From positions 1 to 64,000 of the IMG/VR virus record IMGVR_UViG_3300003860_000003: a DNA stretch of 64,000 nucleotides; one strand, given 5' to 3'. Position numbers and translations under genes: made by a program. Below the pieces are notes generated by a model. That model saw only the letters and a list, made by a program, of their open reading frames with translations, was not told where the DNA came from and searched no databases. Source of the DNA: an uncultured virus (IMG/VR IMGVR_UViG_3300003860_000003) (lineage: Duplodnaviria; Heunggongvirae; Uroviricota; Caudoviricetes). This document shows positions 11,597-47,639 of the stretch, in pieces; the first letter of the stretch is position 1, and every line of letters starts with the position of its first letter.

Positions 11597-12661
11597 TTAT
11601 TTACTAAATTGTTCTAAATCGCAAATCATCATTTTTCTAACTAATTCATGAAATGTTGTTGTTGGTTTCCACTTAAGTTTAGTTTTTGCTTTATAATAAT
11701 CTCCTACAAGATGTTCTACTTCAGCAGGCCTATAATATTTAGGATCAATTTCTATAAGTATTATATTATTATACATAAGTTTTTCATCTACGCCTTCTCC
11801 TATCCATTTAACTTTTCCACTAAATGGAGTATATTTAATAGCTTCATCAATAAATTCTTTTATCGTGTGAGTTTCTCCTGTTGCAATAACAAAGGTTTCT
11901 GGATTTTCTTGTTGAAGCATCATCCACATAGCCTCAACATAATCTGGTGCATATCCCCAATCTCTTTTAGAATAAAGATTTCCCATAGACAATGGCGGAA
12001 CAATTTGTTTATAATTTTGAACAACCTGATAACTATTTGAGAATTTAGATAATCCGATTGTTATTTTTCTTGTAACAAATGTTTCGCCTCGTCTTTCACT
12101 TTCATGATTAAAAAGTATGCCATTAATTGCAAATATTCCATAAGATTCTACATAATTTTCAAGAATCCAATATGAATATAATTTTGCTACTCCATATGGA
12201 CTTCTTGGGTGAAATCTTGTAGTTTCTTTTTGAGGAATTTCTGAGGCTTTTCCAAATAATTCTGATGTACATGCATTATATAATTTTGTTTTTGGAGAAT
12301 GTTTTCTTATAGATTCAAGAATATTTAATGTTCCAATTGCATCTACTTCTGCTGTATATCTTGGAAGATCAAAAGAAACTTTAACATGTGATTGCGCTGC
12401 TAAATGATAAATTTCAGTAGGCTGAAGATTTTTTATAAGATCATCAATTGCTAATGCATCAGTTACATCACCAAAATGTAATGTTAAATTTGAATTTGAA
12501 AAAATATGATCAATGCGTTGTGTATTAAAAGAAGATGCTCTTCTTATTATGCCATGCACAATATATCCCTTTGATAAAAGTAGTTCAGCCAAATAGGAAC
12601 CATCTTGCCCGTTGATACCAGTCACCAGGGCAATTTTTTTATTGCTTAATTTTATACTCAT
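11597..12661 (-). CDS. gmd: GDP-mannose 4,6-dehydratase
   Basis: TGINGQDGSYLAE, LAAQSHV, PRSPYGVAK, FNHESERRGETFVTRKI, RDWGYA. Confidence 0.97.
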   Translation of the reverse strand: MSIKLSNKKIALVTGINGQDGSYLAELLLSKGYIVHGIIRRASSFNTQRIDHIFSNSNLTLHFGDVTDALAIDDLIKNLQPTEIYHLAAQSHVKVSFDLPRYTAEVDAIGTLNILESIRKHSPKTKLYNACTSELFGKASEIPQKETTRFHPRSPYGVAKLYSYWILENYVESYGIFAINGILFNHESERRGETFVTRKITIGLSKFSNSYQVVQNYKQIVPPLSMGNLYSKRDWGYAPDYVEAMWMMLQQENPETFVIATGETHTIKEFIDEAIKYTPFSGKVKWIGEGVDEKLMYNNIILIEIDPKYYRPAEVEHLVGDYYKAKTKLKWKPTTTFHELVRKMMICDLEQFSK

Positions 12662-13400
12662 ACAACATATTTATTATCGATTTAAAAAATTCTATCCAAC
12701 TATCTCTATGAGAATTTGTTTTCATATGATCACTTTTACACAAAGTTACTAAGTTTTCTTCTATACTATTATGTTTATTATAATCTATATGATGCACAAC
12801 ATACCCAGATTTTCCACAAATAACACATTTATAATTATCTCTAATTCTTACTTTAGTTTTAAGTTCTTCATTAAATAGTGTATCATAAGGCTCATTACTT
12901 ATTCCTCCAAACCATGAACCATTTTTTTCTCTTCTAATTTTATCGCCCTGCCCAAACATAGGATTATTTTTATCTTTACAATCTCTATGGTTTTCACTTA
13001 TTTTTGCTAATGACTCGGGTTTATGTTTTTTTCCAAAGAAAGGATTTTTTAAACCACGTAATGATTCACTTATTTTTTTATTATGTTCTTTAGTATGTTT
13101 TTTACCTTTTTTATTTTCTTTAATTTGATTTAATTTTTCGTCTGCTATCTCTTTTCCAAATTTATTTATCCAAATATCATAATATGATCTTCCAAACATT
13201 GGATTTTTTTCTCCAATTAATCCTTTCTTTTTGTTTATTTCATCAAAATGTTTTTTTCCTTTATTTCTTTTTCCATTATTTCTTTTTGCACAAATAGAAC
13301 AACAAAACCTCTTTTTTGATTTTTTATTTATTATAAATTCATTACTGCATTCTTCGCAGAGTCTTTTTTCAAATATAATTTCTTGTTTTTTTCTTCCCAT
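12639..13400 (-). mobile_element. free-standing HNH endonuclease with NUMOD3-like repeats
   Basis: CxxC N-terminus, NPMFG/NPFFGKKH repeats, RDNYKCVICG..VHHIDY...NLVTLC..H; overlaps the gmd start. Confidence 0.88.
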
Positions 13401-13455
13401 AATATATAAAATCGTTTATTGTATATATTATTTTAATTACTGACATAATTGATAT

Positions 13456-13503
13456 TTAATGTGGGCCAGTTATCCCGGTGATAAGCGCTATTTTTTTATT
13501 CAT
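13456..13503 (-). pseudogene. orphaned original 5' end of gmd (MNKKIALITGITGPH*)
   Basis: manual translation; matches NKKIALVTGING of intact gmd with different codons. Confidence 0.85.
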
Positions 13504-13508
13504 TAAAA

Positions 13509-14288
13509 TTATTTTTTAAGTATTTTATATATACATTCATTATCATATTGATCTATATATGATTTTGTATATAAAGTTTTAAAATTTGTTTCTATTATAT
13601 CTTCAATATATTTATACGTTAATTTTAAAGGATGTCCAGAATCATAAATTCTTTCATAAAATTCATCAATATTTTTTTCTTTAATAAATTTATCATGAAA
13701 AATAAAAATACCATTATCACATAATATATTAGATATTTTTTTAAATATTTCATCAACATCAAAACAATGTTCTATTACATTTATCATTACAACTAATTGA
13801 TATTCTTTTGTTGTTATATAATTTTCTATAGCACAATTATATAAATTAACTTTTAACATATTTAAATAACCGTTTTTATATGCACAGGATGGAGAATGAT
13901 TGATATATTCGTTTATAAGCGGATCTAATAAATCAATATTTTTAATAGGCAGATGATATATTTTTGGAACTATTAATCGTAAATTAGTAAATGGCCCACA
14001 TCCTAATTCAATTATATTAAGATATGTGTTAGGAAGCATAAAATTTAATTCTTCATATCCACCAAAGTGTTTTTCATGCTCTTCATTATGATCAGTTTCC
14101 ATGTTTTTAGCTGCAGAATCACACCAAGTTTTTCGTTCATATGATTGCGCTTCATTCCAACGTTCAATATCTACTTTAGGAACACCTACATTTTTTATAA
14201 AATATTGTTTGTCATTATGTTCTTTTAATAATTTTTCAGCAGCTTCTCCTTCAAATATATTTACATCTTTATCTACATATATTTTCAT
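13509..14288 (-). CDS. class I SAM-dependent methyltransferase
   Basis: IELGCGP, LLDPL, NVIEH. Confidence 0.8.
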   Translation of the reverse strand: MKIYVDKDVNIFEGEAAEKLLKEHNDKQYFIKNVGVPKVDIERWNEAQSYERKTWCDSAAKNMETDHNEEHEKHFGGYEELNFMLPNTYLNIIELGCGPFTNLRLIVPKIYHLPIKNIDLLDPLINEYINHSPSCAYKNGYLNMLKVNLYNCAIENYITTKEYQLVVMINVIEHCFDVDEIFKKISNILCDNGIFIFHDKFIKEKNIDEFYERIYDSGHPLKLTYKYIEDIIETNFKTLYTKSYIDQYDNECIYKILKK

Positions 14289-14294
14289 TTTTAA

Positions 14295-15590
14295 TTATAT
14301 TATTTCAAATTTAGGACATGGTATAATAAAATGCCCACCCTTTTCTAAATATGATTTTTCTCTTTCTTTAAATTCATCTATAAAATGCCAAGGTAAAACG
14401 AGTAAATAATCTGGATGAATATTTCTCATGGTTTCTTCAGAATGAATAGGTATATTTGTACCTATTGTTTTTAGTCCAAATTTATAAGGGCTTCTTTCTG
14501 CAGCGCCATCTATCCACAAATTATCTAATCCAAACCACTGAAGAAGTGTATTACCTTTAGTTGATGCGCCATAAACCCATATACTTTTTCCTGATTCATG
14601 TGCTTTCATAACAAATTCGCAAGTCTGTTTTTTTAACTCTTGAATATCATTCCAAAAGTTTATATAGGATTCCTTATCTTTAAGATTTAATGTCTTCTCA
14701 TATTCCCTGAGTGATTGTAGACGCATTTGAGCTACATCTCTATATGGTGAAGATCCAAAAGATTCTGGCTTTGCTTTTTGTTTTTGAATATATGTTCTAA
14801 AGCTTCCGCCATTAACATCATTTAATATAACATCGACTACTTTAAATCCAATCTGCCTTAACATATATTCCATTGAATATAAAGAATGATAAAATACATG
14901 TTCATGACAAATATTATCAAATGCAAGTTGTTTAATCATTAATGGCATATAACTTTGTTGAATAACAAATAAACCATCATCTTCCATAATATCGTAAACA
15001 TCTTTAAGAAATAAAAGAGGATCTTCAAGATCATAAAACATAGCAATACATGTAACAATAGAAGCTTTAGTTAATTCTCCAGATATTATTGGTTCCCATT
15101 TTTCATAAACATCTTTTGAGAAAAAATCTTTAACTGCAATATCACAATTATTTTTTGCTTCAATTTGAAAACTTCCTTCTGCTGGATCTATTCCTATCCG
15201 TTCATATTTCTTATTATTGACAAATGATAATAATGTTCCATCATTTGATGCTATGTCTAAAAATACTAATTTATCATAAGGATCATCTACATCATTTTTT
15301 GCCTTTATTTTAGATAAATTCATACAAGAATTAGCAATATCAAAAAGTTCCATTTTCATAGTAGTATTAGTACCCGAACGATACCAATATTTGCCATACA
15401 TAAAATCTTTATCTGCATTTTCTTTTAACTGAAGGCACTGAGTATCTGGAGATAACATCAATGTTAAATCCCATTTTTTTGTTCCTCTATAGTCTCCTTC
15501 TGTTTTAATAAAATCTGATATATAAAGATCTCCTAACGAAAATAATTCTATAAGGGGAGAATTTGTTATTCTACAATTTGTATTTTTCAT
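14295..15590 (-). CDS. NDP-sugar C-methyltransferase (Methyltransf_13/14 type)
   Basis: YWYRSG, LDIASNDGTLL, FDNICHEH, VNGGS, YGASTKGNTLL, LVLPWHF. Confidence 0.9.
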   Translation of the reverse strand: MKNTNCRITNSPLIELFSLGDLYISDFIKTEGDYRGTKKWDLTLMLSPDTQCLQLKENADKDFMYGKYWYRSGTNTTMKMELFDIANSCMNLSKIKAKNDVDDPYDKLVFLDIASNDGTLLSFVNNKKYERIGIDPAEGSFQIEAKNNCDIAVKDFFSKDVYEKWEPIISGELTKASIVTCIAMFYDLEDPLLFLKDVYDIMEDDGLFVIQQSYMPLMIKQLAFDNICHEHVFYHSLYSMEYMLRQIGFKVVDVILNDVNGGSFRTYIQKQKAKPESFGSSPYRDVAQMRLQSLREYEKTLNLKDKESYINFWNDIQELKKQTCEFVMKAHESGKSIWVYGASTKGNTLLQWFGLDNLWIDGAAERSPYKFGLKTIGTNIPIHSEETMRNIHPDYLLVLPWHFIDEFKEREKSYLEKGGHFIIPCPKFEII

Positions 15591-15954
15591 ATTGTTTTTC
15601 TTCTATTATACTTGAGTTATATTGAAGATTGATTTGTCTTTTTACTTCTGATCGTTTATCATTCCAAAAATAAACTGATCGAGCCAATTCAATAAATTCA
15701 TCATTATGGAAATCTTTATTTTTTTCTTTTATTCGTATTTTATCTTCTATATTCCATATGTGACTGTTTATATTGTATAATTCTGTATGATATATTCCAT
15801 CAATATCAAAATTTTCAGCAATATCTTGAAGAATATCTAATTCTTTTTGAATATTTTCTAATTTAATTGTATCTTTAACATTTTCTTTTTTAATAAGCAA
15901 AATCGATATTTTATCATATAATTCTCCTAATGATACAGGTACAAGTATTTCCAT
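15571..15954 (-). CDS. DUF6165-like protein
   Basis: PVSLGELYDKISIL.IK, WNIED.IR, ELARSVY..ND.R. Confidence 0.7.
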   Translation of the reverse strand: MEILVPVSLGELYDKISILLIKKENVKDTIKLENIQKELDILQDIAENFDIDGIYHTELYNINSHIWNIEDKIRIKEKNKDFHNDEFIELARSVYFWNDKRSEVKRQINLQYNSSIIEEKQYEKYKL

Positions 15955-15970
15955 TTTATAGATTATTAAA

Positions 15971-16687: not shown

Positions 16688-16692
16688 ATATT

Positions 16693-17364: not shown

Positions 17365-17367
17365 AAT

Positions 17368-18135: not shown

Positions 18136-18140
18136 TAATA

Positions 18141-19007: not shown

Positions 19008-19019
19008 ATTATTTTATAT

Positions 19020-19958: not shown

Positions 19959-19970
19959 AATTTATATTAT

Positions 19971-25080: not shown

Positions 25081-25818
25081 TTAAAATTTATCTATTACTT
25101 TCCAATTTAATCTCATTGCTGCTTGTTCTACTGGATTAGGTCTTGTGTATTTATGATAAATTAAATTGTTATGATTTATATTCATTAAATCTATAAAAGA
25201 TCTTAATCCAGTATTAATAATATGCACTTCTTTAGCTTTTTCAATAGTGTATAAAATATCTAACACGCTTACTTCAGGATATTTTGCTAATTCAATTACT
25301 CTATACATATCACTAACATACTTCCTATTTATACATATTCCATTATTTCTTTTTGGATCTTCATGTAAAAATAAATATTGTTGATTTTCTTTTAATCCAA
25401 ATATATCATAATATGCTTCTTTTTCTTTTTTGGGATCTCTTTCAAAGTAAAAATTATCCCATTTTAAATAAAATGGAACACCACCAAGAATATACCAAAA
25501 TCTATCTCCTATCATATTATCTCCTAATGTATATGGTAAATCTTGATTTTCAAACCATGGCTTAACTTGTTCATACCACCAACCGCTACTAATAATTTTA
25601 TCATATTCATTATCTGCAAATCGTTCAGTTGTTAAAACTACATTAGGAATACTTGAAAATAATCTTTTAATATTATCATTATGAGAAGAACTTACTAAAG
25701 TTCCTTGTGCGTTATCACTAATAGTTAATATTACTTCATCATATTGTTTTGAATATTCTTTAATAATTCCAAATGTTACAACATGATCTCCAAATTGCGT
25801 ATGTGTATATACTTTCAT
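25081..25818 (-). CDS. hypothetical glycan-related protein, paralog 2 of 3
   Basis: shares FGD, KWDNFYFERD, YTIE.AKEVH. Confidence 0.65.
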   Translation of the reverse strand: MKVYTHTQFGDHVVTFGIIKEYSKQYDEVILTISDNAQGTLVSSSHNDNIKRLFSSIPNVVLTTERFADNEYDKIISSGWWYEQVKPWFENQDLPYTLGDNMIGDRFWYILGGVPFYLKWDNFYFERDPKKEKEAYYDIFGLKENQQYLFLHEDPKRNNGICINRKYVSDMYRVIELAKYPEVSVLDILYTIEKAKEVHIINTGLRSFIDLMNINHNNLIYHKYTRPNPVEQAAMRLNWKVIDKF

Positions 25819-25821: not shown

Positions 25822-26553
25822 TTATGTTATTAAATTCCAAGGTAATCTTAAATTTATACTATCAAATATTGATGGTCTTACATACATATGATAATATAAA
25901 GCAGGGTGCTGAATATTCATTAAATCAATAAATGTTAATGTACTTGTATTAAAAGTATGCACTTCTTTAGCATGTTCAATAGTATATAAAATATCTAATA
26001 TGCTAATATCTTGATAATTAAAAAAATCTATCCATTTAATATTTGCATTTAGATGTTTTTTATTAATATTATAATTTCTTACAGGATCTTCATGAAAAAA
26101 TAAAAATTCTTGATTATCTTTTAAGCCCAAGATATCATAAAAAACTTCTTTTTCTTTATTTAAATCTCTTTCAAAATAAAAATTATCCCATTTTAAATTA
26201 AATGGCAAACTAGCATTTAAATACCATTGTCTATCAAACCACCAATCATCTTTAAACCATTCTGGTGGAGGTAATGATGGATCTTGATACCATGGAAGAA
26301 CTTTATCAAACCAGTATTTAGTATGAGCTATTTTATGATCAGCAGCGTGAATTTCTTCTTTATAGACTTCATCTATTAATTCTACATTTTTCAGGCTAGA
26401 ATATAAACGAGTAATTGAATTAAATGTATTTTTATTCATTACATCAGAATACACTTTTACTTCATTATATCTTTTTGCAAATTCTTTAAGAATTCCATAA
26501 CAGATACACTGATCGCCAAATCCGTGATATGTATAAACTTTAATCTTTTCCAC
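25822..26553 (-). CDS. hypothetical glycan-related protein, paralog 3 of 3
   Basis: GTG start; shares HGFGD, KWDNFYFERD, YTIEHAKEVH. Confidence 0.65.
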   Translation of the reverse strand: MEKIKVYTYHGFGDQCICYGILKEFAKRYNEVKVYSDVMNKNTFNSITRLYSSLKNVELIDEVYKEEIHAADHKIAHTKYWFDKVLPWYQDPSLPPPEWFKDDWWFDRQWYLNASLPFNLKWDNFYFERDLNKEKEVFYDILGLKDNQEFLFFHEDPVRNYNINKKHLNANIKWIDFFNYQDISILDILYTIEHAKEVHTFNTSTLTFIDLMNIQHPALYYHMYVRPSIFDSINLRLPWNLIT

Positions 26554-29204: not shown

Positions 29205-29478
29205 AATTTTTCTGTGTTAATTCAATTTGTTCAAGTCTTTCAATTACTTCTTCTGGTAAATCAGGCTCTGTTGGGAAAATACATTCTATAGATGTAGGCT
29301 GATAATGTACAGGTAAAACTATACTTTTAATTATAGTATTTGTATTTTCCTGTAATTCATTATCAAATGATTCATCTAAAATTCTTTTAAAATCTGATAA
29401 ATGTTCTTGAATTTCTTGATAAGATAATTCATCATTTACACTTAAATAACATACTAAAATTATTAATTTCTTTTTCAT
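29179..29478 (-). CDS. hypothetical protein
   Basis: overlapping in-operon ORF. Confidence 0.65.
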   Translation of the reverse strand: MKKKLIILVCYLSVNDELSYQEIQEHLSDFKRILDESFDNELQENTNTIIKSIVLPVHYQPTSIECIFPTEPDLPEEVIERLEQIELTQKNYDEHRSKD

Positions 29479-30401
29479 TTGTTTATGATTTTATCAATGT
29501 ATTCAAATTTTCTATATTGGTCTTTATAATTTTTACCAACGCCTGCGATTGCGTATCTCATTTCTAATATAACCTTTGGAGCACCAAGACCTTCCGTTTG
29601 CATATAACTATAAGATTCTTTAAAAAATAGTTTTATGCCAGGCTGATTTGTATTATTTCTTCTTCCTATGTATACATTAGTATCTTGATATAACATATAA
29701 GGATCTACATAAATAGTCACGCCTGCAATAGTTCCAATTGGATAAATACTGCCATTTGTAGATACAGGTTTATTTAAAGTAGCATATACAAAATTAGATG
29801 AACTCTGTAAAAGCATAGCAGTTTTTAAACTACATATAACAAAATTTCCACTTCCCCATCTACTATTTGCTGCAATATTATTGGCTTCTTTTAAAATTCT
29901 ATAATTTAACTCTTTAGAAGTTTGAATTTTTATTTTTTTTCTATATTGTTTTTTAACAAGTTTATATGCCCATACTTTAAACTTATCCCAACGGGTATAT
30001 TCTTTAATATAATTTTCTGTAGCAGCTTCTCCAATTTTTGATATATAATGTTTTGTTAATTGTTGAGAAGCTTCATTTATCAATGCTTTTTTAACAACTT
30101 CGTTTAAGTCTAAATTAAATTTATCTTTAAATTCTTTAGCTTGTTCTGAAGTTATATGCGTGCCTACTCTAGAAGTGCTAACTTGTATTGTTTGTTTTTG
30201 TTTTTCTAGAGAAATGGTGTCAGACTCTTTATTATAATTAAATTCCAAATATGGAACTTCAAACACCGGATTATCTACAATCTGTATTTCTCCTAATGGA
30301 TAAATGTTACTTTTTTCAATTATAATATCATTTAGAGTTTCTTTTTCTTCTACTGCTATTTTAGCAGGTTCTTCTACTTTTACTTTTTTAGGTCGTGCCA
30401 T
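29475..30401 (-). CDS. truncated major capsid protein paralog (gp23/gp24-like)
   Basis: RWGSGNFVICSLKTA, NGSIYPIGTIAGVTIYVDPYMLY.DT, TEGLGAPKVIL..RYA closely match the C-terminal half of 2630-4402. Confidence 0.88.
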   Translation of the reverse strand: MARPKKVKVEEPAKIAVEEKETLNDIIIEKSNIYPLGEIQIVDNPVFEVPYLEFNYNKESDTISLEKQKQTIQVSTSRVGTHITSEQAKEFKDKFNLDLNEVVKKALINEASQQLTKHYISKIGEAATENYIKEYTRWDKFKVWAYKLVKKQYRKKIKIQTSKELNYRILKEANNIAANSRWGSGNFVICSLKTAMLLQSSSNFVYATLNKPVSTNGSIYPIGTIAGVTIYVDPYMLYQDTNVYIGRRNNTNQPGIKLFFKESYSYMQTEGLGAPKVILEMRYAIAGVGKNYKDQYRKFEYIDKIINK

Positions 30402-39105: not shown

Positions 39106-40281
39106 ATGGAACAACAAATAGATTCGTCTAAAAACCAGTATCAACCAGCTCAGGAGATTATCGTTGATACTGAAGAACCCCCTCTTATCATCTCCGAAAA
39201 AACTCAATCTTTTAAAAATAGATTTTATTCAGATGTATCTGATACTAATTGGAATGATTGGCATTGGCAGATACGTAACAGTATAACTACATATGAAGAA
39301 TTGAGTCGTATATTTGGAGATTCAAATTATGAATTATCCAAGAATATAAATTTACCATTAAGAATTACTCCATATTATGCAAGTACAATCACTTCTCTTT
39401 CAGAAGGAATCGGAAAGTGCGTTATTCCAACCAATAACGAACTTCACGTAACTGAAAATGAGAAAAACGACTCGCTGAACGAAGAACATCAAAGTCCTGT
39501 GGAATGTATAGTTCATAGATATCCAGATCGTGTATTATTTCTAACCACGGACTTTTGTTCTTCAAATTGTCGATACTGTACAAGAAGTAGACTCATAAAT
39601 AGAGAACGAATTCCTAAGAAAGCGTGGGAAAAGGCGCTTCAGTATATTAGAGAACATACTGAGATACGAGATGTGTTATTATCTGGAGGAGATCCTTTAA
39701 CTATGAATGACGATAGTATAGAATATCTTCTTAAAGAAATTAAAGAAATAAAACACGTTGAGTTCTTAAGAATTGGAACTAAAGTTCCTGTTGTGTTACC
39801 TCAAAGAATTACGCCAGAGTTAACTAATATCTTAAAGAAATATCATCCTTTATTCATAAGTATTCATTTCTCTCATCCCGATGAAATAACTTCAGAAGTT
39901 AAACAAGCGTGTGAAAAGCTTGCGAATGCAGGAATTCCTTTAGGTTCTCAAACAGTATTACTCAAAGGCGTTAACGATGACCCACAAATTATGAAAAAGC
40001 TTATGAATAGTCTTCTTACAATTAGAGTTAGACCATATTATATATATGCATGCGATCTTGTTGCAGGTACAAGTCATTTTAGAACTACTATTAATAAAGG
40101 ACTTCAGATTATCTCAGCATTGAGAGGCTGGACGAGTGGTTACGCGTGTCCAACATTTATTGTAGATTCTCATTTAGGAAAAATTGAAGTCTGTGATAAC
40201 ATTATATCGCATAAAGATCATGTATATGAATTTAAAAGTTATACTGGAGAAATTTTAAGATATGAAGAAAATGTAGAATAA
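39106..40281 (+). CDS. kamA: KamA-family radical SAM lysine 2,3-aminomutase
   Basis: WNDWHWQ, LRITPYY, HRYPDRVL, CSSNCRYCTR, LSGGDPL, QTVLLKGVND, RPYY, HFRT, TSGYA. Confidence 0.92.
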   Translation: MEQQIDSSKNQYQPAQEIIVDTEEPPLIISEKTQSFKNRFYSDVSDTNWNDWHWQIRNSITTYEELSRIFGDSNYELSKNINLPLRITPYYASTITSLSEGIGKCVIPTNNELHVTENEKNDSLNEEHQSPVECIVHRYPDRVLFLTTDFCSSNCRYCTRSRLINRERIPKKAWEKALQYIREHTEIRDVLLSGGDPLTMNDDSIEYLLKEIKEIKHVEFLRIGTKVPVVLPQRITPELTNILKKYHPLFISIHFSHPDEITSEVKQACEKLANAGIPLGSQTVLLKGVNDDPQIMKKLMNSLLTIRVRPYYIYACDLVAGTSHFRTTINKGLQIISALRGWTSGYACPTFIVDSHLGKIEVCDNIISHKDHVYEFKSYTGEILRYEENVE

Positions 40282-41258
40282 TCTTTATTAGTAATTATTA
40301 AATAATTATACCCATTAAGAATAGTATATTTTTTCTTTGCTTCTATTTTTTCTTTATCTTTTTTTAAAAGATAAGAATTTTTTATTTCAACGATAAGATT
40401 TAAAGATGGAATGTAAAAATCTGGAAAATATAATCTGGATTCATTTTTATATTGATATTTTATTGTTGGGCCATTAACTATATCAGAATATACTGGGTAA
40501 AATTTTTCTAAAAAATCATATTCATAAGATGCTCTATAGTTTATAATAGTATTTTTATATTTTTTTGAATAACACGCGTTTTTTTGTTGTTTATCATGCA
40601 CTTCTTTATTCTGTGATGGATTTTTAACTCCATATTTATCTATACAAGTTTTTTCTATTTTATCTCTAACTTTTTTATTATTATTTGGATTTTCAACTCC
40701 ATATCTTTGCATACAAGTTTCTTTTATTTTATTTTTTACATCTATTCGTTGAAACGTATTTTTTACTCCGAAATTTTCTAAATTAGATATAATTATTTTT
40801 TCTTGAATTTTTAAAGACTGAAATGGATATTCTACTTCCAATTTTTTTAAATTATTTTGTTTTATTTCTTTTTGTATTTTTTCATTTTTCATAGGGCATT
40901 TATGCCCATATTTTTTTATCATCGTTTTATTTACTTTTTCTCTAATAGTTTTATCTTTAGTAGGAGAATTTACACCATATCTAAGTAATAAAGTTGCTTG
41001 AATTTTATGTGTTCTAAATTTTTTAGTGCAGTCAGATGAACAACAATTTTTATAACCTTTTCCTAATCCTATAAATGTTGTTTCTTTTTTACAAATTTTA
41101 CAAGTATTTTCATCATTTTCTTTTAGCCATTTATCATAATATGTTTTTTGAGAATAGTGATTAAGTCTTATATGTTTACTTAACCCATCGATTTTAACAA
41201 ATGTGCGTTGGCATTCTTCACATATAAATAAATTCTTTTCTTTTTTGAATTCTTTCAT
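40239..41258 (-). mobile_element. free-standing PD-(D/E)xK endonuclease with Zn finger and KYGV-type repeats
   Basis: C2H2 N-terminus, repeated (K/R)YGV.NP units, YFPDFYIP..NLIVEIK; antisense and overlapping the kamA 3' end. Confidence 0.82.
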
Positions 41259-41265
41259 TTTTTAT

Positions 41266-41276
41266 TTTATATATTC
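41266..41276 (-). promoter_or_regulatory. late-type promoter carried by the endonuclease element
   Basis: GAATATATAAA on minus strand just upstream of 41258. Confidence 0.6.
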
Positions 41277-41294
41277 ATGAAAAAATTTAGGTTT

Positions 41295-41426
41295 GTTCCT
41301 CAGTTTATTATTGATACTCCGGGTGGTAAAATACCTATGTTACCAGATTATTACGTTGGACGTGAAGGAAATTGTGTAAAATTAAAAAACTATGAAGGAC
41401 GTGAATTTATATATTATGAAGATTAA
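41295..41426 (+). pseudogene. orphaned original 3' end of kamA (43 aa)
   Basis: VPQFIIDTPGGKIPMLPDYYVGREGNCVKLKNYEGREFIYYED* resembles the canonical KamA C-terminus; no start codon at its 5' end. Confidence 0.9.
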
Positions 41427-41449
41427 ATATATAAATAAAAGTCTCTTTA

Positions 41450-42313
41450 ATGCGAGCACAATATATTAACGAAAAATTTATAGAAGAGTCGGATCCCATT
41501 CATGACTTAGGAATAGGAATTTATGCGAAACGTAGATTTAAAGATGAAGATGACGCTGCAGATTGGTTTTTTAAATATTTAACTGTTATTTTAGGTACAG
41601 ATAAAATCCCTGATGATATCATTTTTCCTGAAGATGAAAATACTGCATTTAATTGGAAATATTATAATATATTAGATGAATACGCTAAGAATTATACTAA
41701 AATGGAAAACAGACATACTGGTAATCCTTTTGCATATATTTATATGGGTGTAAGAAATAAATTATTAAAATTAGGATATCCTAAAAGACACCCAGATACA
41801 GGAAAACGTATAAAACCCCAAAAACATATAGATGAAAAATTTATTGAAAGTGATGATGCGATATATGATATGGGCATAGGATTAAAATCAAGATACAAAG
41901 ATTTAGTTAAATTATTTGGAAACGCTGATAAGAATCATTATATTTTTACAGTATATGTACGTAATGGATATATAGATTTCTGGTTTAATAATCCTAAAAT
42001 TAAAAACTTACCGAAAAATGAAATTGATAAGTTAGGTAAATATGTTAAAGATATTATTAATAACTTGGGATTTTCTTCCATTTTAATTAAACCGCGATTA
42101 ATTAGACATTATTTTAAAAAAGATGATGTAACATTACCACGAATAGTAAGATTTACTATAACGCCTACATTTAAAGACATAGTACCCCGCGCAAATTATA
42201 GAAGACAGCTTTCTAAACCTCCGTATTTTACAGATTATCATGAGTATGAATATGAACATGAAAAGAAATATAGACGTGAAATTAGAGCTATGGAAGGTGA
42301 TGATCAAAAATAA
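41450..42313 (+). CDS. two-module EKF..DPI.DMGIG-cassette protein
   Basis: cassettes at 41471-41518 and 41834-41881. Confidence 0.78.
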   Translation: MRAQYINEKFIEESDPIHDLGIGIYAKRRFKDEDDAADWFFKYLTVILGTDKIPDDIIFPEDENTAFNWKYYNILDEYAKNYTKMENRHTGNPFAYIYMGVRNKLLKLGYPKRHPDTGKRIKPQKHIDEKFIESDDAIYDMGIGLKSRYKDLVKLFGNADKNHYIFTVYVRNGYIDFWFNNPKIKNLPKNEIDKLGKYVKDIINNLGFSSILIKPRLIRHYFKKDDVTLPRIVRFTITPTFKDIVPRANYRRQLSKPPYFTDYHEYEYEHEKKYRREIRAMEGDDQK

Positions 42314-42321
42314 ATATTAAT

Positions 42322-42639
42322 ATGAAAAAACTTATTAAAGAATCTTTATATGAAAAATTTGAAGAACATTCAGATCCTATTAAAGATATGAAAATAGGTT
42401 TTAATAGAAATAGATATCTTACAGAAAAATTAAAAAGATATAATATAGAAGTTGATACTTATTATGAAGGATTTGCTTATTTAATACAAGAACTTTATAA
42501 TAGAGAAGGCGTAAATAACCTTGTAAATACAATTCTTGATAATACTCCTGCGGAATATCAAAAACAATTTATAGATGAATATGTTTATTCATTTCTTGAA
42601 GGAGAAGATTTAGAGATTTTACCAGAAGATGAAATTTAA
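42322..42639 (+). CDS. EKF..DPI.DMGIG-cassette protein
   Basis: MKKLIKESLYEKFEEHSDPIKDMKIG. Confidence 0.75.
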   Translation: MKKLIKESLYEKFEEHSDPIKDMKIGFNRNRYLTEKLKRYNIEVDTYYEGFAYLIQELYNREGVNNLVNTILDNTPAEYQKQFIDEYVYSFLEGEDLEILPEDEI

Positions 42640-42677
42640 TGAATATATATTAAAATAAACTAAAATAAATTAAAATT

Positions 42678-42926: not shown

Positions 42927-42953
42927 TTATGAATATATAAAATAAACTATAAT

Positions 42954-43361
42954 ATGAAAAAATTAGTATACGAAAGTCTTAATGAATTTATATCATCAGT
43001 AGCAAACGATAAAGATATATTTAAAGGACAAAAGAAAGTCGGTTTAACTGTTGAAGATGTTGATTCAAGAGAATTTCTTGTAGGAATGGAAGTTGAAAAA
43101 GAACACTCTTCTGATTTATCAGTAGTTGAAACAATTGTTCTTCAACATTTGTCTGAGAATGAAAAATATTATAGTGAAGGAATGAAAAAGGGTATTTTTG
43201 AAGAGCCTGCTGCTATAAATTTATATAAAAAATATTTTATTGATAAAGAAGAACCAGAAAAACCTAAATCTGCGAAAAAATCGCCTGAACCTGCTGCAGT
43301 ACCAGCAGAACCTGCAGCAGAAAAAGGCCCAGATTTAGGAGGTATGAATTTAGGAGGTTAA
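42954..43361 (+). CDS. DUF5661-like protein with capsid-targeting-like leader
   Basis: GMEVEKEH...HLSE...YY; MKKLVYESLNE leader; promoter motif at 42931-42941. Confidence 0.65.
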   Translation: MKKLVYESLNEFISSVANDKDIFKGQKKVGLTVEDVDSREFLVGMEVEKEHSSDLSVVETIVLQHLSENEKYYSEGMKKGIFEEPAAINLYKKYFIDKEEPEKPKSAKKSPEPAAVPAEPAAEKGPDLGGMNLGG

Positions 43362-43375
43362 AATTATTTTTAGAA

Positions 43376-43651
43376 ATGCCAATAAATCCGGAAAAAATAG
43401 AAAAAAAACTTTCCCCGTGGAGCAAGCTTATATCAAATGTTAAAGATGTAGTATATATCGTTTTATTTTTAGCATCAGTTATAGGTTGGATACGTTCTGA
43501 AACTGTTAAAAATACTAAGTTACAAGTTCAAGTAGAAACTTTAACAAAAGCAGTTAATGAAAATACCGATCAACTTGAAAAGGTTAATAGTGTTTTAACT
43601 GAACAACAATTATTGAATGGCAAGATTATACAATATATGCAAATGAAATGA
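43376..43651 (+). CDS. single-pass membrane protein with coiled coil
   Basis: VVYIVLFLASVIGWI followed by heptad-rich region. Confidence 0.65.
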   Translation: MPINPEKIEKKLSPWSKLISNVKDVVYIVLFLASVIGWIRSETVKNTKLQVQVETLTKAVNENTDQLEKVNSVLTEQQLLNGKIIQYMQMK

Positions 43652-44058
43652 AAAGAAAACTAATTACAATAGGATTATTATTTTTATTATACATGATTTT
43701 TGTATCATGTGGAGCTTGTATGTCAAGATCAAATCCGCCTAAAGAAATGTATAGTATAGATGAATATAGTGTTGATTCTACTATGCCAGTATTAAATATT
43801 TCAGAAGATACTATTACTATGTTAGTAATAACAACACCCGATGAAACTACATATGAAGATAAATCTTTAGATACAGAAGATGTACAACAAGAAGCTAAAA
43901 AAATAACAACTCAAAAGAAAATTGAACCCGTGGAAATTGATACATTAAGAAAAACTCAAAGAGCAATAAACTATAAACAATTAGAAAAAACTGAAGAAGT
44001 TCTTAAAGAACAACATAAAGAAATAGATTCTTTAATATTTGTAAAAAGTAAAAAATAG
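43648..44058 (+). CDS. putative lipoprotein
   Basis: basic N-terminus, hydrophobic stretch, FVSC/GAC lipobox-like Cys. Confidence 0.6.
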   Translation: MKRKLITIGLLFLLYMIFVSCGACMSRSNPPKEMYSIDEYSVDSTMPVLNISEDTITMLVITTPDETTYEDKSLDTEDVQQEAKKITTQKKIEPVEIDTLRKTQRAINYKQLEKTEEVLKEQHKEIDSLIFVKSKK

Positions 44059-44088
44059 TTGCATCCCCAAAGATAGAATCTTTGGCCT

Positions 44089-44119
44089 GACGCTCCTTAC
44101 GAGGGGCGTCTCTTTTTTT
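44089..44119 (+). terminator. intrinsic terminator
   Basis: GACGCTCCT-TACG-AGGGGCGTC then TCTTTTTTT; a second small hairpin lies just upstream. Confidence 0.85.
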
Positions 44120-44182
44120 AATAAATTAAAACTTTTAATCTCTTTAAAGGTATAATAATTAAACTATATTAAATATTTTAAC

Positions 44183-45394
44183 ATGCGTTACATAGCACAT
44201 ATACCTCTTGCTGGAGGTTTTGCTCTTGGAAATATGAATATAATAGGAAGCCCTCCTCTGGCAATTACATCCTATACTCCTTTTAAAGCTAATGACGATT
44301 TATTGAGAAGATATCTTTTGAAAAAAGGACACGATGTGCCTTATATTCAATTAGATAATATGAATGATAACGAAGTTCATAAACTACAAGAATTTTCTAA
44401 AAATCTTGATTTTGTCACAGCAGTTCCACCTTGTTCTGGATTATCTCAAGCTGCACAACGTCCTAAGGGTTCAAGAGGAACTGCAGAACCAAATGAATGG
44501 ATGTATAAATCAGCAGTCTTTATCTTAGATTTTTTAAGTCCAACTATTTATGCATTTGAAAATGCTCCGGGCCTTTATACAGGCAGTGGAGAAGATGTAA
44601 GAAATAATCTTATTAAAATTGCTGAAGCAAATGATTATGCAGTTACATTTTATAAAACAAATACGATAAAGCACGGAATTCCCCAATTTCGTCCTCGTAC
44701 ATTTGCAATATTTCTAAAAGGTAAATACGCTCCTATATTACATTCATATAATAGACCGATGCCAAATATTTCTAAATATTTAAAAGATATACCTAAAAGA
44801 GCAAGTTATCAAGATAAATATATGAATGAAGATTCAGATGTAAATGAATATGAAATAACAAAATTCTTTAAAAAAATATATGGAACTGATTGGAAAAATG
44901 AAATTTATAAAACATATAAAACTCATTTAACTTCATACGATTATCTTAAACGACAGGGATTATTATATGATTTTAAAGATTTTCTTGAAACTTTACCGAA
45001 CGCGTCTAATATAGTTAAAAAGAATACTGCTCATGTTATTAAAAAGACTGAGATGGGTAAAAATTTTAGACTTGGATATCGTGTTCTTGGATTAGATAGA
45101 GATTATGTGTACGCGGTGATATCTGAGATGATGAATAGAACACTTCATCCTTCAGAGGATAGACTTATTAATATAAGAGAATATATGCACCTGATGGGAT
45201 TACCTCATGATTATGAACTTGAAAGTATAAAGGAATATCCTAAAATAACTCAAAATGTTCCAGTTTGCACATGTGAGGATGTAACTCGAGAAATAGTTGA
45301 AATAATAAAAGGTAATCGTACATTATCTACTCAATCTGTTTATATGCAGGATAATACAAAAGAATTAAATAATAAATCAAAATCTTTATTCTAA
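44183..45394 (+). CDS. C5 cytosine DNA methyltransferase-like protein
   Basis: PLAGG (variant motif I), PPCSGLS (IV), FENAP (VI), PQFRPR (VIII), R...RE...LMGLP (IX), QNVP (X). Confidence 0.85.
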   Translation: MRYIAHIPLAGGFALGNMNIIGSPPLAITSYTPFKANDDLLRRYLLKKGHDVPYIQLDNMNDNEVHKLQEFSKNLDFVTAVPPCSGLSQAAQRPKGSRGTAEPNEWMYKSAVFILDFLSPTIYAFENAPGLYTGSGEDVRNNLIKIAEANDYAVTFYKTNTIKHGIPQFRPRTFAIFLKGKYAPILHSYNRPMPNISKYLKDIPKRASYQDKYMNEDSDVNEYEITKFFKKIYGTDWKNEIYKTYKTHLTSYDYLKRQGLLYDFKDFLETLPNASNIVKKNTAHVIKKTEMGKNFRLGYRVLGLDRDYVYAVISEMMNRTLHPSEDRLINIREYMHLMGLPHDYELESIKEYPKITQNVPVCTCEDVTREIVEIIKGNRTLSTQSVYMQDNTKELNNKSKSLF

Positions 45395-45807
45395 TGGGAT
45401 ATACAAGTATTGAACCGAGATTAAAAACTAATGCAATTGATGATAAAAAAGAACAATGGATGAAAAATTACGTAAGAGCAAGTTTATTAACTGAAGGAAT
45501 TTCAGGAAGTGTAGGACCTGTGGGTCAACCGGGAATGACAGGAATTCAAGGTCCTCCTGGAATGCCAGGAACTCATGCGTCATTTAGTCAACAAGGATAT
45601 ACTAATTTAGATAGTAGTACATATTCTACTTTAGTTAATTTAAAAAATGGAACATTAGATTCAAACTGTATTGAAGATGCTTTTCTTAAATTAGTTGATA
45701 AATATGGAATATATATGACTCACCCGCCTACAATAAATTCAGAAGAAACAGTTAATGAACCGTTAACTATATCAAGTGAAAAACTTTTACACTTGATGAA
45801 GTTATAA
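45394..45807 (+). CDS. hypothetical protein with short collagen-like stretch
   Basis: GISGSVGPVGQPGMTGIQGPPGMPG. Confidence 0.65.
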   Translation: MGYTSIEPRLKTNAIDDKKEQWMKNYVRASLLTEGISGSVGPVGQPGMTGIQGPPGMPGTHASFSQQGYTNLDSSTYSTLVNLKNGTLDSNCIEDAFLKLVDKYGIYMTHPPTINSEETVNEPLTISSEKLLHLMKL

Positions 45808-46068
45808 ATCTAATAAATGGAATGCGTACTGAATTAATAGATAAGGGACAAGCATATTGGAATACCCAAGATATAAGAACATATATTGATAAAAATGAAT
45901 TAATTGAAATACTTAAAAATTCATTATAATGGCTATACTTAAATCTGCATCTTTTGCAAGAGACACTGGATTAAAAGATAGATTTTCATGGTTATTATAC
46001 TTAAAGTCTAAACATACACTTAATTATTCTCAACAAAAAGAATTAGAAAAATTACTTAAAGAGAAAAA

Positions 46069-46110
46069 ATGAAATTAATAATTATTGAAGATGGAGATAG
46101 AGTTGAATAA
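46069..46110 (+). pseudogene. orphaned original 5' end of the dNMP kinase (MKLIIIEDGDRVE*)
   Basis: matches MKLIVIEGGDRLG at 47025; its ATG overlaps the TGA of the upstream small ORF. Confidence 0.85.
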
Positions 46111-46135
46111 AAATTATGAATATATAGAATAAAAC

Positions 46136-47056
46136 ATGATTTTAAGTGAAGTAATTAAATTAAAAAATTCTACAATAACTAATAAACAACGAATAATAAT
46201 TCAATGTGATGAATGTGATAATATATGGGATTCTTCTTTATTAAATCAACAACTAGGATTTCAGAAATATTATAAAGATTTATGCAGAAGCTGTAAGAAT
46301 AAACAGCAATATAAAGAAGGCATTCGAAATTCTAATAAATTAATTCAATATAATAAAAGTTTAAAAAATAAAACATTAGAAGAAATTTTAGGAATTGATG
46401 GTGCTATTATTGCTAAAGAAAAAAATTCTACAGCAAATAGTGGAAAAAATAATGCAAATTTTGGTGGTAAATATTCGCATGGATGGGCCTCATTAGATCA
46501 AAATGGAAAAACCATTGAACAAATCTGGGGTGAAGAAACAGGTAAACGATTACGACAACATTATAGTGAATCTCGTAAAGGCGATAAAAATAATATGTAT
46601 GGTAAGCCTTCTCCTCAGGGTTCAGGTAATGGTTGGAGTGGTTGGTATAAAGGGTGGTTTTTTAGATCTCTAAAAGAATTATCATATATGATATATGTTA
46701 TTGAAAGATTTAATTTAAAATGGGAAGGAGCTGAAAAAAAGAAATATAAAATTGAATATATTGACTATAACGGAAACAAAAGAACGTATTATCCAGATTT
46801 TTTAATTGAAGATAAATTTTTAATAGAAATTAAGCCTAAAAAATTATGGAATAGCGATACAGTTGCAAGAAAAAAAGAAGCCGCTGAGGTATTTTGTAAA
46901 CAACAAAATTTTAAATATAAATTAACTGAATGTGTAAAACAAGTATCTTTTGAAGAAATAAAAAATTTAATAGAAGATAAAAAATTAATATTTACAGAAA
47001 GATATAATAAAAAATTTATTAAATATGAAACTCATTGTGATCGAGGGGGGAGATAG
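46136..47056 (+). mobile_element. free-standing TnsA-like PD-(D/E)xK endonuclease with NUMOD3-like motifs
   Basis: CxxC pairs, NNMYGK, FRSLKE, TYYPDFLI...EIKP; promoter motif at 46118-46128; overlaps the kinase start. Confidence 0.85.
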
Positions 47057-47639
47057 ACTTGGTAAATCTACTCTTATTGAAGGTATTTGTAAAAAGTTTG
47101 ATTATAATAATATTACAATAAGACATTTTGGAAAACCTCCTAAAGGCATGACTGTTGAAGAAACTTTAGATTATCAATTTAAATGTTTTGATAATGAAAT
47201 TCAATTAGTTCATAAAATTAAAAATGTTTTTTGCTATTCTAGATATAATTATTATGAAGACATAATTATATGGAATAGATCACACTTAGGAGAATATGTA
47301 TATGGTCAAATGTTTAGAAACGTAGATGGTAATTTTTTGAAAAATAAATTAATGAACTGGGAAATTACTGAATTACCTTATGTTGACAATAAATTTGACA
47401 TATATCTTATTACTTTAACAGCAGATCCTTATTTCTTTTTACTTAAAGAAGATGGCGATTCTTTTTCACAAAATTTAGAACAAAAAACTAAAGAACTTGA
47501 ATTGTTTAAAGAAGCACATGATTTTTCAAAAATAAAAAATAAACTTATGTTAAAAGTAGATGAAGTAGTTGTTATGGAAGAAACTGCGTTTAGATCTAAA
47601 AAACAAATATTAAAAGAAGTAATACAATTTGTAAAATGA
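47025..47639 (+). CDS. deoxynucleoside monophosphate (thymidylate-type) kinase
   Basis: P-loop IEGGDRLGKST; NRSHLGEYVYG. Confidence 0.88.
   Translation: MKLIVIEGGDRLGKSTLIEGICKKFDYNNITIRHFGKPPKGMTVEETLDYQFKCFDNEIQLVHKIKNVFCYSRYNYYEDIIIWNRSHLGEYVYGQMFRNVDGNFLKNKLMNWEITELPYVDNKFDIYLITLTADPYFFLLKEDGDSFSQNLEQKTKELELFKEAHDFSKIKNKLMLKVDEVVVMEETAFRSKKQILKEVIQFVK

What the first reader, a model, noticed from the sequence alone, without database searches (positions are those of the whole stretch)
11597..47639. Intron-less 'insert-and-repair' endonuclease elements that split a gene at its conserved motif and supply a recoded replacement terminus (3 cases, different nucleases)
Seen: an HNH gene in gmd, a Zn-finger PD-(D/E)xK gene in kamA and a TnsA-like PD-(D/E)xK gene in the dNMP kinase. 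Each is flanked on one side by an orphan copy of the host gene's terminus and on the other by an intact gene whose terminus encodes similar amino acids with different codons, overlapping the nuclease 3' end. Each nuclease has its own late-type promoter motif (13419-13430, 41266-41276, 46118-46128). The split points are the Gmd GxxGxxG, the kinase P-loop and just upstream of the KamA PLP-lysine loop. Established: homing endonucleases target conserved codons and usually rely on introns/inteins to avoid killing the gene. Inference: here the element avoids splicing by carrying a recoded gene end, which both restores function and destroys its own cut site.
Basis: partly seen in the sequence, partly recalled or inferred. 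Interest (0 to 1): 0.9.

Follow-up and report, generated by a model that had tools for sequence, protein, structure and literature searches.

The report
Homing nucleases carrying replacement gene ends
Three selfish DNA-cutting-enzyme genes sit inside three useful genes of a giant uncultured phage, and each keeps its host gene whole by bringing a substitute gene end and leaving the original end stranded, a trick known from fungal mitochondria.

Summary
In a 28% G+C, T4-like jumbo phage contig, an HNH gene (in gmd), a zinc-finger PD-(D/E)xK gene (in kamA) and a TnsA-like PD-(D/E)xK gene (in a thymidylate-kinase-like gene) each lie between an orphan gene end and an intact gene whose own end overlaps the nuclease's 3' end. 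A scan of the 133-kb contig finds exactly these three orphans. Relatives without the nucleases have orphan-like ends joined directly to the gene body. This is strongest for kamA: 95 of 119 homologues carry the orphan-type end and 20 the current type. Two of the three nuclease families show the same layout in other phage contigs. The replacement N-termini are among the most codon-atypical stretches in the genome.

The best reading is intron-less homing by free-standing endonuclease cassettes that carry a cleavage-resistant replacement end. Cleavage and immunity are inferred, not shown. For kamA the new end is a divergent allele, not a recoding.

The principle is already described for fungal mitochondrial mobile ORFs (Allomyces atp6; Glomus atp6, atp9, cox2, nad3). 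My literature searches found no phage description. This scan has noted the same layout in at least eight other phage genomes. I rate it a new variant of a known kind, of moderate interest.

The parts
11597..12661 (-). gmd (GDP-mannose 4,6-dehydratase), intact, 354 aa
   Evidence: PF16363 E 4e-128, profile 1-332 of 332
12572..12661 (-). Replacement gmd N-terminus (codons 1-30), codon-atypical. Homology with the orphan ends at codon 18 (12608).
   Evidence: GC3 0.31 against a genome mean of 0.125; log relative adaptiveness -1.02, 0.1 percentile. Codons 11-22 rank 2nd of 41,227 twelve-codon windows.
12639..13400 (-). HNH + NUMOD3 homing-endonuclease gene, 253 aa. Its 3' end overlaps the gmd start by 23 nt.
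   Evidence: NUMOD3 E 1.8e-13. HNH_3 is below cut-off (18.9 against 24.8 bits). Seven PHROG HNH families, best E 5e-10.
13415..13429 (-). Promoter-like motif AATATATACAATAAA upstream of the HNH gene
13456..13503 (-). Orphan gmd N-terminus (15 codons and a stop)
   Evidence: score 56; no distant gene end reaches it. Resembles the start of the closest HNH-free gmd, L067.
39106..40281 (+). kamA-family radical SAM gene, intact, 391 aa
   Evidence: Radical_SAM E 4.6e-15; LAM_C E 1e-5, 26.1 bits, just under Pfam's 26.7-bit cut-off. Homologues 60-77% identical.
40147..40281 (+). Replacement kamA C-terminus (44 codons, 'class B' allele)
   Evidence: GC3 0.07 against 0.22-0.27 for the kamA body. 43-64% identical to the ends of the 20 class-B homologues and 25-38% to class-A ends.
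40239..41258 (-). C2H2 zinc-finger + DUF7487 / PD-(D/E)xK endonuclease gene, 339 aa, convergent with kamA (43-nt overlap)
   Evidence: DUF7487 E 8.8e-41; TnsA-like N 23.8 bits, below the 26.5 cut-off. PHROG 'homing endonuclease' E 1.7e-26. Shares the Y-(F/Y)-P-D-F...E-I-K core with the third nuclease.
41261..41275 (-). Promoter-like motif AATATATAAAATAAA upstream of the kamA-associated nuclease
41295..41426 (+). Orphan kamA C-terminus (43 codons and a stop; lies in ORF 41277-41426)
   Evidence: LAM_C E 3e-7. 70-86% identical to the ends of the closest class-A homologues.
46069..46110 (+). Orphan kinase N-terminus (13 codons and a stop). Its ATG overlaps the stop of the upstream ORF 45929-46072.
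   Evidence: score 47. Genome-typical codons, GC3 0. 33 of 39 nt match the nuclease-free allele in L224, by my own count from the printed codons.
46119..46133 (+). Promoter-like motif AATATATAGAATAAA upstream of the TnsA-like nuclease gene
   Evidence: A near-identical leader stands before the relative in L005.
46136..47056 (+). Zn-ribbon + NUMOD3-like + TnsA-like PD-(D/E)xK endonuclease gene, 306 aa
   Evidence: PF08722 34.7 bits against a 26.5 cut-off. Model residues 157-305 align to TnsA 1t0f_A with Z 8.4. D221, E231 and K233 are invariant in 19 relatives.
47025..47639 (+). Thymidylate-kinase-like dNMP kinase, intact, 204 aa. Codons 1-16 (47025-47072) are recoded.
   Evidence: PF02223 E 6e-7. 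Codons 2-16: GC3 0.33 (0.38 over codons 1-16) against about 0.11 for the rest; log adaptiveness 0.5 percentile.

Best explanation
These are three independent free-standing homing-endonuclease cassettes of about 0.86-1.15 kb: 12608-13464, 40147-41294 and 46105-47060. Each consists of a promoter-like leader, a nuclease gene and a replacement end of the invaded gene that overlaps the nuclease's 3' end. Each sits exactly at codons for a conserved motif.

Inferred mechanism: the nuclease cuts nuclease-free alleles at the motif codons. The break is repaired from a cassette-bearing genome, which copies the nuclease together with its linked, cleavage-resistant gene end. The gene therefore stays whole without splicing. 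The displaced native end remains as an orphan and then serves as the homology arm for later precise homing.

Shown: the anatomy, the polarity (orphan is native, current end is imported), recurrence in other genomes, and absence of an intron or intein.

Inferred: cleavage, resistance of the new end, and the repair pathway.
For: - Anatomy and uniqueness.
- Nuclease domains.
- Empty kamA alleles: the 12 closest viral-contig loci, and 5 metagenome loci (one of them, L264, from the same contig as one of the 12), have the orphan-type end contiguous with the body and no adjacent nuclease. Among 119 homologues, 95 are orphan-type, 20 current-type and 4 unplaced. Ranks 2-19 are orphan-type (one ambiguous).
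- Variable crossover points: class-B proteins switch class at different places by eye in the alignment. The window switches 44 residues from the end, while P0021, P0024, P0025 and P0060 switch from about residue 230. This looks like co-conversion tracts.
- Composition: the kamA new end has GC3 0.07, like the nuclease (0.09), against 0.22 for the body.
- Empty gmd allele: L067.
- Same element elsewhere: a 45%-identical HNH sits at the same gmd codon in L057-59, with its own orphan. Both HNH-linked alleles read G-I-N-G. An Asn at that position is found in 5 of 78 HNH-free loci.
- Kinase: the orphan has native codon usage and keeps the ATGA coupling to the upstream gene. The current start is recoded.
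- Relatives of the kinase nuclease sit at P-loop codons of three kinase types, with duplicated N-termini in L005, L006, L007 and L008-12. Mismatched-flank controls reach at most 41.
- The same family also sits inside a split intein at a P-loop in L015, read in full; L013 and L022 show the same intein start.
- No intron-like RNA.
Against:
- No second nuclease-filled kamA site was found. 0 of 7 relatives of that nuclease show flank duplications. The genomic context of the class-B mosaic proteins is unknown.
- The gmd orphan is itself codon-atypical (GC3 0.42). It is only 17 of 24 nt identical to L067 over the motif, against 13 of 24 for the current end (my own count). Polarity for gmd therefore rests mainly on amino acids and position.
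- For the kinase, orphan and current end are both close to the family consensus at protein level.
- In both gmd elements the residues before the motif are shared between orphan and new end within a genome. A cassette that always imports a foreign start does not predict this.
Confidence: 0.8

Rival explanations
1. Reverse polarity. The current gene ends are native, and the 'orphans' are scraps of the nuclease's previous host gene that travelled with it and landed beside an intact gene.
For: The gmd orphan has foreign-looking codon usage (GC3 0.42). The orphans are short, and two of the three are too short for a tree.
Against: The kamA orphan is 70-86% identical to the ends of the closest relatives of this gene's own body; the current end is 25-38% identical to them. 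The kinase orphan has genome-typical codons, while the current start is in the 0.5 percentile. The kinase orphan keeps the native ATGA junction with its upstream gene, as does the gmd orphan in L057.
Confidence: 0.07
2. The nucleases are ordinary intergenic free-standing endonucleases. The orphans are one-off scars of illegitimate repair, not a heritable part of a mobile unit, so the cassette does not regularly move as 'nuclease plus gene end plus orphan arm'.
For: Most relatives of the three nucleases show no flank duplication: 6 of 9 HNH relatives, 7 of 7 kamA-nuclease relatives, and about 34 of 42 kinase-nuclease relatives. L200 has a nuclease remnant simply downstream of an otherwise whole kamA.
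Against: The same orphan-plus-nuclease-plus-new-end layout, at the same codon, recurs in a distant gmd lineage (43% aa identity) with a 45%-identical HNH. It recurs at P-loops of three kinase types. Orphans that decay with time would also explain the relatives that lack them.
Confidence: 0.1
3. Assembly artefact, or a gene in pieces that needs splicing, protein splicing or subunit reassembly.
For: The contig comes from a metagenome.
Against: All three host genes are full-length over their Pfam profiles. There are no Rfam hits at gathering score or at E<=1 around the cassettes, and no intein motifs. Equivalent layouts occur in independent assemblies: L057-59 come from three contigs and L008-12 from five.
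Confidence: 0.03

Closest known systems
Mobile endonuclease ORFs (mORFs) that form gene hybrids in fungal mitochondria: Allomyces macrogynus atp6; Glomus atp6, atp9, cox2, nad3; Rhizopus atp9; Mortierella cox2. Source: PMC3630166, passages read. The 1994 Allomyces paper was seen only as its reference 48.
   Same: An endonuclease ORF is inserted in a protein gene without an intron. It carries a foreign gene end that is read in frame with the body. The native end is left beyond the ORF and clusters with close relatives, while the inserted end is divergent, partly through synonymous changes.
   Different: Those cases are mitochondrial, use LAGLIDADG or GIY-YIG enzymes, and replace C-termini only. 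Here the host is a phage and the enzymes are HNH and PD-(D/E)xK. Two of the three cases replace the N-terminus, so the start codon lies inside the nuclease's 3' end. One nuclease is antisense to its host gene. Each has its own promoter-like leader.
Intron-less homing and marker exclusion by free-standing endonucleases of T4-like phages (seg and mob genes). Source: review PMC2988022, passages read.
   Same: Stand-alone nuclease genes in a T4-like genome. Some T4 endonuclease genes, such as the three intron-encoded ones, have their own middle or late promoters. The nuclease cleaves a neighbouring conserved gene in nuclease-free phages. Flanking sequence is co-converted, and the host allele is resistant through sequence divergence.
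   Different: T4 elements lie between genes and leave no orphan. The review text contains no word beginning 'duplicat'.
Endonuclease insertions that split genes: mobE in Aeh1 nrdA, mobA with T4 gene 60/39, seg in gene 43 (PMC2988022). Also 'fractured genes' with split inteins (PMC2677866, passages read).
   Same: A nuclease is inserted in a functionally critical motif of a conserved enzyme gene. Relatives of the kinase-associated nuclease occur in a fractured AAA ATPase (L015).
   Different: In those cases the gene stays in two pieces, or is mended at protein level. Here the gene is mended at DNA level by a spare end.

Membership tests
Free-standing homing endonuclease genes (intron-less homing) | Encodes a nuclease domain of a homing-endonuclease type with modular DNA-binding parts | tested here: met
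   HNH with NUMOD3. TnsA-like PD-(D/E)xK with a Zn ribbon and NUMOD3-like repeats. DUF7487/PD-(D/E)xK with a C2H2 finger.
Free-standing homing endonuclease genes (intron-less homing) | Not embedded in an intron or intein | tested here: met
   No Rfam family at gathering score in the window, or at E<=1 in 11500-47700. ORFs are separate, and no intein motifs flank them.
Free-standing homing endonuclease genes (intron-less homing) | Sporadic presence or absence at the same site among related genomes | tested here: met
   The nuclease is absent beside 79 of 80 other gmd loci apart from L057-59. It is absent beside the 66 other kamA loci, apart from a 73-residue remnant after kamA in L200. It is absent from 28 other kinase loci.
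Free-standing homing endonuclease genes (intron-less homing) | Site-specific cleavage of the nuclease-free allele and resistance of the host allele | not testable with these tools
   Needs enzyme assays. Only recoding or divergence of the presumed site is seen.
Gene-hybrid mORF elements (fungal mitochondria) | An element-borne replacement end is read in frame with the body, and the native end is retained beyond the ORF | tested here: met
Gene-hybrid mORF elements (fungal mitochondria) | The native (orphan) end groups with close relatives, and the inserted end is foreign | tested here: met
   Clear for kamA. Supported by codon usage for the kinase. Supported by amino-acid sequence only for gmd.
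Gene-hybrid mORF elements (fungal mitochondria) | Mitochondrial host, LAGLIDADG or GIY-YIG enzyme, C-terminal replacement | tested here: not met
   The contig is a T4-like phage (Gp23, prohead protease). The enzymes are HNH and PD-(D/E)xK. Two of three replacements are N-terminal. It therefore works like an mORF but is not a member by descent.
TnsA-like PD-(D/E)xK nucleases | TnsA N-terminal catalytic fold with a D...E-x-K triad | tested here: met
   Kinase nuclease: PF08722 34.7 bits against a 26.5 cut-off. Best structural match TnsA 1t0f_A, Z 8.4, 135 residues aligned, rmsd 7.2. D221, E231 and K233 invariant. kamA nuclease: only 23.8 bits, so inconclusive for that one.
Vsr-like / EDxHD homing endonucleases (fractured genes; I-Bth0305I) | Vsr-type catalytic core | tested here: inconclusive
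   Vsr 1cw0_A Z 5.3; I-Bth0305I 3r3p_B Z 4.7, both below TnsA. No Pfam Vsr hit at E<=5. Relatives do occupy a fractured-gene layout.
HNH endonucleases | HNH (beta-beta-alpha-metal) motif | tested here: met
   PHROG HNH families, best E 5e-10. The H-H...N...H and C-x-x-C pattern is visible in residues 190-235. Pfam HNH_3 is below its cut-off.

The most novel reading that the evidence does not exclude
Replacement-end homing cassettes may be a general, so far undescribed mode of endonuclease spread in phages. In this reading the orphan end is a functional homology arm, and codons of universal motifs (Rossmann GxxGxxG, Walker A, the PLP loop) are caught in a synonymous-recoding arms race. The doubly atypical gmd codons, and nuclease-free kinases with GC-rich P-loop codons, would be its traces. 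The same TnsA-like nuclease family would protect its P-loop target in three ways: a recoded spare start, a split intein, or a conserved 6-nt stop-containing insert that ribosomes must read through or hop over.
Probability: 0.3. Interest if true: 0.8.

Novelty: new variant of a known kind. Interest (0 to 1): 0.55.

Why it matters
It shows how selfish nucleases can enter the most conserved codons of essential enzyme genes in phages without introns or inteins. That would explain some short orphan gene fragments, rare-codon patches and mosaic gene ends in phage genomes.

Each case also supplies a natural pair of presumed sensitive (orphan plus body) and resistant (current) target sequences. These are direct, testable predictions of target sites for poorly known nuclease families, notably TnsA-like PD-(D/E)xK enzymes. 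They could be checked at the bench and are of interest as site-specific nucleases.

Tried and rejected
- An all-against-all short-peptide BLAST of the six-frame translation was too noisy in this AT-rich genome. I replaced it with the scan of intergenic peptides against gene ends.
- Single-protein scans of viral contigs with kamA and the kinase returned only the window's own contig. Alignment-based scans were needed.
It returned only nuclease-free class-A loci and distant kamA genes, and no filled site.
- Sliding identity of gmd against L067 does not mark off the imported tract.
- GenBank phage records hold no relative of the kinase nuclease, and only one uncultured 636-kb phage matches the HNH. 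There is no close DNA relative of the gmd region.
- No flank duplication was found for 7 relatives of the kamA nuclease.
- In the flank scan, L021 (44) and L043 (42) exceed the control maximum of 41. Their alignments are low-complexity or gapped and not at a gene end, so I did not count them.
- Vsr-like membership is inconclusive. Foldseek alone gave no match at E<=0.001.
- Literature searches for a phage precedent found none (passages of PMC10448857 and PMC2988022). The library omits most subscription journals, so this is not proof of absence.

Full report
**What the window is.** The 64-kb window is the first half of a 133,176-bp, 28% G+C virus contig. The same sequence lies in a 405,016-bp IMG/VR contig. 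It encodes a Gp23-type major capsid protein and a prohead protease, so it is a T4-like jumbo phage. It also carries a long sugar-modification gene cluster that includes gmd. GenBank phage records hold no close DNA relative.

- On the minus strand, an HNH/NUMOD3 gene (12639-13400) overlaps the start of an intact gmd (11597-12661) by 23 nt. A 15-codon orphan gmd start (13456-13503) lies upstream. The orphan and the current start share 10 of 12 residues around the Rossmann motif. Nine of the 12 codons differ, seven of them synonymously.
- kamA (39106-40281) overlaps, tail to tail by 43 nt, a zinc-finger PD-(D/E)xK gene (40239-41258, minus strand). Beyond the nuclease lies an orphan kamA C-end (homologous from 41295 to 41426). 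That orphan shares only 14 of 42 residues with the current end.
- A TnsA-like gene (46136-47056) overlaps the start of a thymidylate-kinase-like gene (47025-47639) by 32 nt. A 13-codon orphan start (46069-46110) lies upstream. Its ATG still overlaps the stop of the preceding ORF.

Pfam and PHROGs support the domain calls.

**More than chance.** I scored every intergenic peptide of the 133-kb contig against the first and last 60 residues of genes within 2.5 kb. The three orphans score 56, 55 and 47, and no distant gene end reaches these values. The only other high hits are two paralogue pairs (one a tandem gene with a GTG start) and a lysine-rich low-complexity match. The contig therefore holds exactly these three cases. 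Two further endonuclease-like genes in the window have no orphan: 49529-50191, SegE-like GIY-YIG, and 51271-51915, NUMOD3.

**Which end is native: kamA.**

- The 12 closest kamA loci in viral contigs have bodies 68-77% identical to the window's. Their ends follow the body directly, are 57-83% identical to the orphan and 34-42% to the current end, and have no adjacent nuclease.
- Five metagenome loci show the same; one of them, L264, comes from the same contig as L148.
- Of 119 protein homologues, 95 have ends closer to the orphan, 20 closer to the current end, and 4 could not be placed. Ranks 2-19 are all orphan-type, one ambiguously.
- The current-type ('class B') proteins are mosaics. They switch from class-A-like to class-B-like sequence at different points, judged by eye in the alignment. 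This is what variable co-conversion tracts would leave.
- In the window the switch coincides with a drop in GC3 from 0.22-0.27 (body) to 0.07 (new end). The nuclease gene has 0.09.

**Which end is native: gmd.** The closest relative (L067, 82% aa) shows no HNH hit; only 687 nt upstream of its gmd are held, less than a full HNH gene. It starts with an orphan-like sequence that runs on into Q-D-G-S-Y-L.

**Which end is native: the kinase.** Protein sequences cannot decide, because both ends match the family consensus. Codon usage can.

- The orphan uses genome-typical codons (GC3 0). By my count from the printed codons, it matches a nuclease-free allele (L224) at 33 of 39 nt.
- The current codons 2-16 have GC3 0.33 (0.38 over codons 1-16) against about 0.11 for the rest, and lie in the 0.5 percentile of codon adaptiveness.
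- Among all 41,227 twelve-codon windows of the contig's genes, the gmd start ranks 2nd. The kinase start ranks 16th of the non-overlapping list.
- The nuclease genes themselves have ordinary codon usage. The odd codons are therefore local to the presumed target site and are not a sign of a foreign donor genome.

**Recurrence elsewhere.**

- A 45%-identical HNH sits at the same gmd codon in L057-59, a gmd lineage only 43% identical to the window's. It has its own orphan, which again overlaps the upstream gene's stop. Both HNH-linked alleles read G-I-N-G where the orphans and most gmd genes read G-I-T/A-G. An Asn at that position occurs in 5 of 78 HNH-free loci.
- Relatives of the kinase nuclease were tested in 42 loci. 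They have duplicated N-termini ending at P-loop codons in L005 (a guanylate-kinase-like gene), L007, L006 and L008-12 (an AAA_33-like kinase). Scores are 40-95 against a mismatched-flank maximum of 41. L006 is borderline by score but clear on inspection.
- In L005 the leader before the nuclease is almost the same as in the window, so it travels with the gene.
- In L015 the same family lies inside a split intein at the P-loop of an AAA ATPase; L013 and L022 show the same intein start at a P-loop upstream of the nuclease. This is the 'fractured gene' layout of Dassa et al. (PMC2677866, passages read).
- For the kamA nuclease, 0 of 7 relatives show flank duplications. L200 has a 73-residue remnant antisense just after kamA.

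**What the nucleases are.** The kinase nuclease model has pLDDT above 90 over residues 170-300. It aligns best to TnsA (1t0f_A: Z 8.4, 135 residues, rmsd 7.2). Vsr scores Z 5.3 and I-Bth0305I Z 4.7. D221, E231 and K233 are invariant in 19 relatives. It shares only this core with the kamA nuclease, and shares NUMOD3-like repeats with the HNH protein. No intron-like RNA is detectable.

**The promoter-like motif.** TATATANAATAAA occurs 6 times in the window against 0.38 expected. Three copies lie 3-20 nt upstream of the nuclease start codons, and the others lie just upstream of other genes. A one-base-longer variant precedes the capsid gene. That is compatible with a late promoter, but timing is not shown.

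**Mechanism.** The best-supported reading is intron-less homing. The nuclease cuts nuclease-free alleles in the motif codons, and repair copies nuclease plus linked resistant end. The orphan, once formed, supplies the homology on the other side.

For gmd and the kinase, resistance would come from recoding the half-site carried by the new start. For kamA it would come from a naturally divergent allele.

Steps shown: anatomy, polarity, recurrence, and absence of splicing elements. Steps inferred: cleavage, immunity and repair route.

Two points remain unexplained. The gmd orphan is itself rich in rare codons. And in both gmd elements the residues before the motif are shared between orphan and new start within a genome. 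These could reflect earlier rounds of invasion, or gene conversion limited by self-cleavage.

**What is known.** The design is described for fungal mitochondrial mobile ORFs: a foreign C-end is fused to the gene, and the native end is left downstream and not expressed. The examples are Glomus atp6, atp9, cox2 and nad3, Allomyces atp6, Rhizopus atp9 and Mortierella cox2 (PMC3630166, passages read).

T4-type free-standing endonucleases share the homing logic but lie between genes or split genes. The T4 review contains no word beginning 'duplicat' (PMC2988022, passages). The ICP1 study of nuclease boundaries mentions no displaced ends in the three places that matched my terms (PMC10448857). Searches found no phage description, but the library is incomplete.

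This scan has already noted the same layout in at least eight other phage genomes. Those are unchecked notes and are not used as evidence.

**Verdict.** It is a new variant of a known kind: a phage setting, HNH and PD-(D/E)xK enzymes, N-terminal replacement and an antisense form. Interest is moderate.

Noticed in passing
L006, L007, L014, L018-L020, L024-L031, L033-L040, L043, L046-L048 (not in the window): In 26 of 48 loci (17 distinct sequences), an AAA_33-like kinase next to a relative of the kinase nuclease has an in-frame stop inside Walker A..R-G-V/L-P, stop, P/L-G-x-G-K-S/T. A 20-21-residue N-peptide (44 in L014) precedes the stop and a 117-128-residue open frame follows it. All three stop codons occur (15 TGA, 9 TAA, 2 TAG), always followed by C. 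Removing the stop and the next codon gives a canonical P-loop. This looks like a conserved 6-nt insert at the nuclease target that must be read through or hopped over. It resembles the T4 gene 60/MobA cassette (recalled; bioRxiv 10.1101/2022.08.31.505936 seen in a search listing only)..
   Followed up: partly
L015 1667-4624 (also L013, L022): An AAA ATPase is broken at G-K-P-G | T-G-K-T-T by a split intein (C-V-L-S-D... and ...I-V-S-H-N), with the TnsA-like nuclease gene between the halves. This is a 'fractured gene' whose nuclease looks TnsA-like rather than Vsr-like..
   Followed up: partly
window 49529-50191 and 51271-51915: Two more endonuclease-like genes without orphans: SegE-like GIY-YIG (26.2 bits against a 25 cut-off) after the thymidylate-synthase-like gene, and a NUMOD3-bearing ORF..
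   Followed up: no
L219 / L213 (kinase start); also L233-L238: Nuclease-free kinase alleles have GC-rich codons confined to the P-loop region (first 16 codons GC3 0.38 against 0.11 for the body in L219). They may be resistant alleles left after nuclease loss..
   Followed up: no
window 13465-13500: The gmd orphan itself uses rare, GC-ending codons (GC3 0.42, 0.6 percentile), unlike the kinase orphan. It may be a trace of an earlier round of recoding..
   Followed up: no
L200 2192-2413: A 73-residue remnant of the kamA-associated nuclease's zinc-finger N-terminus (44% identity) lies antisense directly after a whole kamA gene..
   Followed up: no
window 5000-32800: A T4-like jumbo phage carries a roughly 27-kb block of sugar-nucleotide and glycan genes: gmd, NDP-hexose 2,3-dehydratase, a DegT aminotransferase, several methyl- and glycosyltransferases, and tandem paralogues at 25081-25818 and 25822-26553. 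It also has a second Gp23-like gene at 29475-30401..
   Followed up: no
window 41450-42639; contig 71215-73144; L050-L052: A multi-copy family of small proteins sharing an E-x-S-D-P-I-x-D-(L/M)-G-I-G motif lies next to copies of the kamA-type nuclease, in this phage and in related contigs. L050 has three nuclease paralogues, each overlapping a convergent neighbour's 3' end..
   Followed up: no
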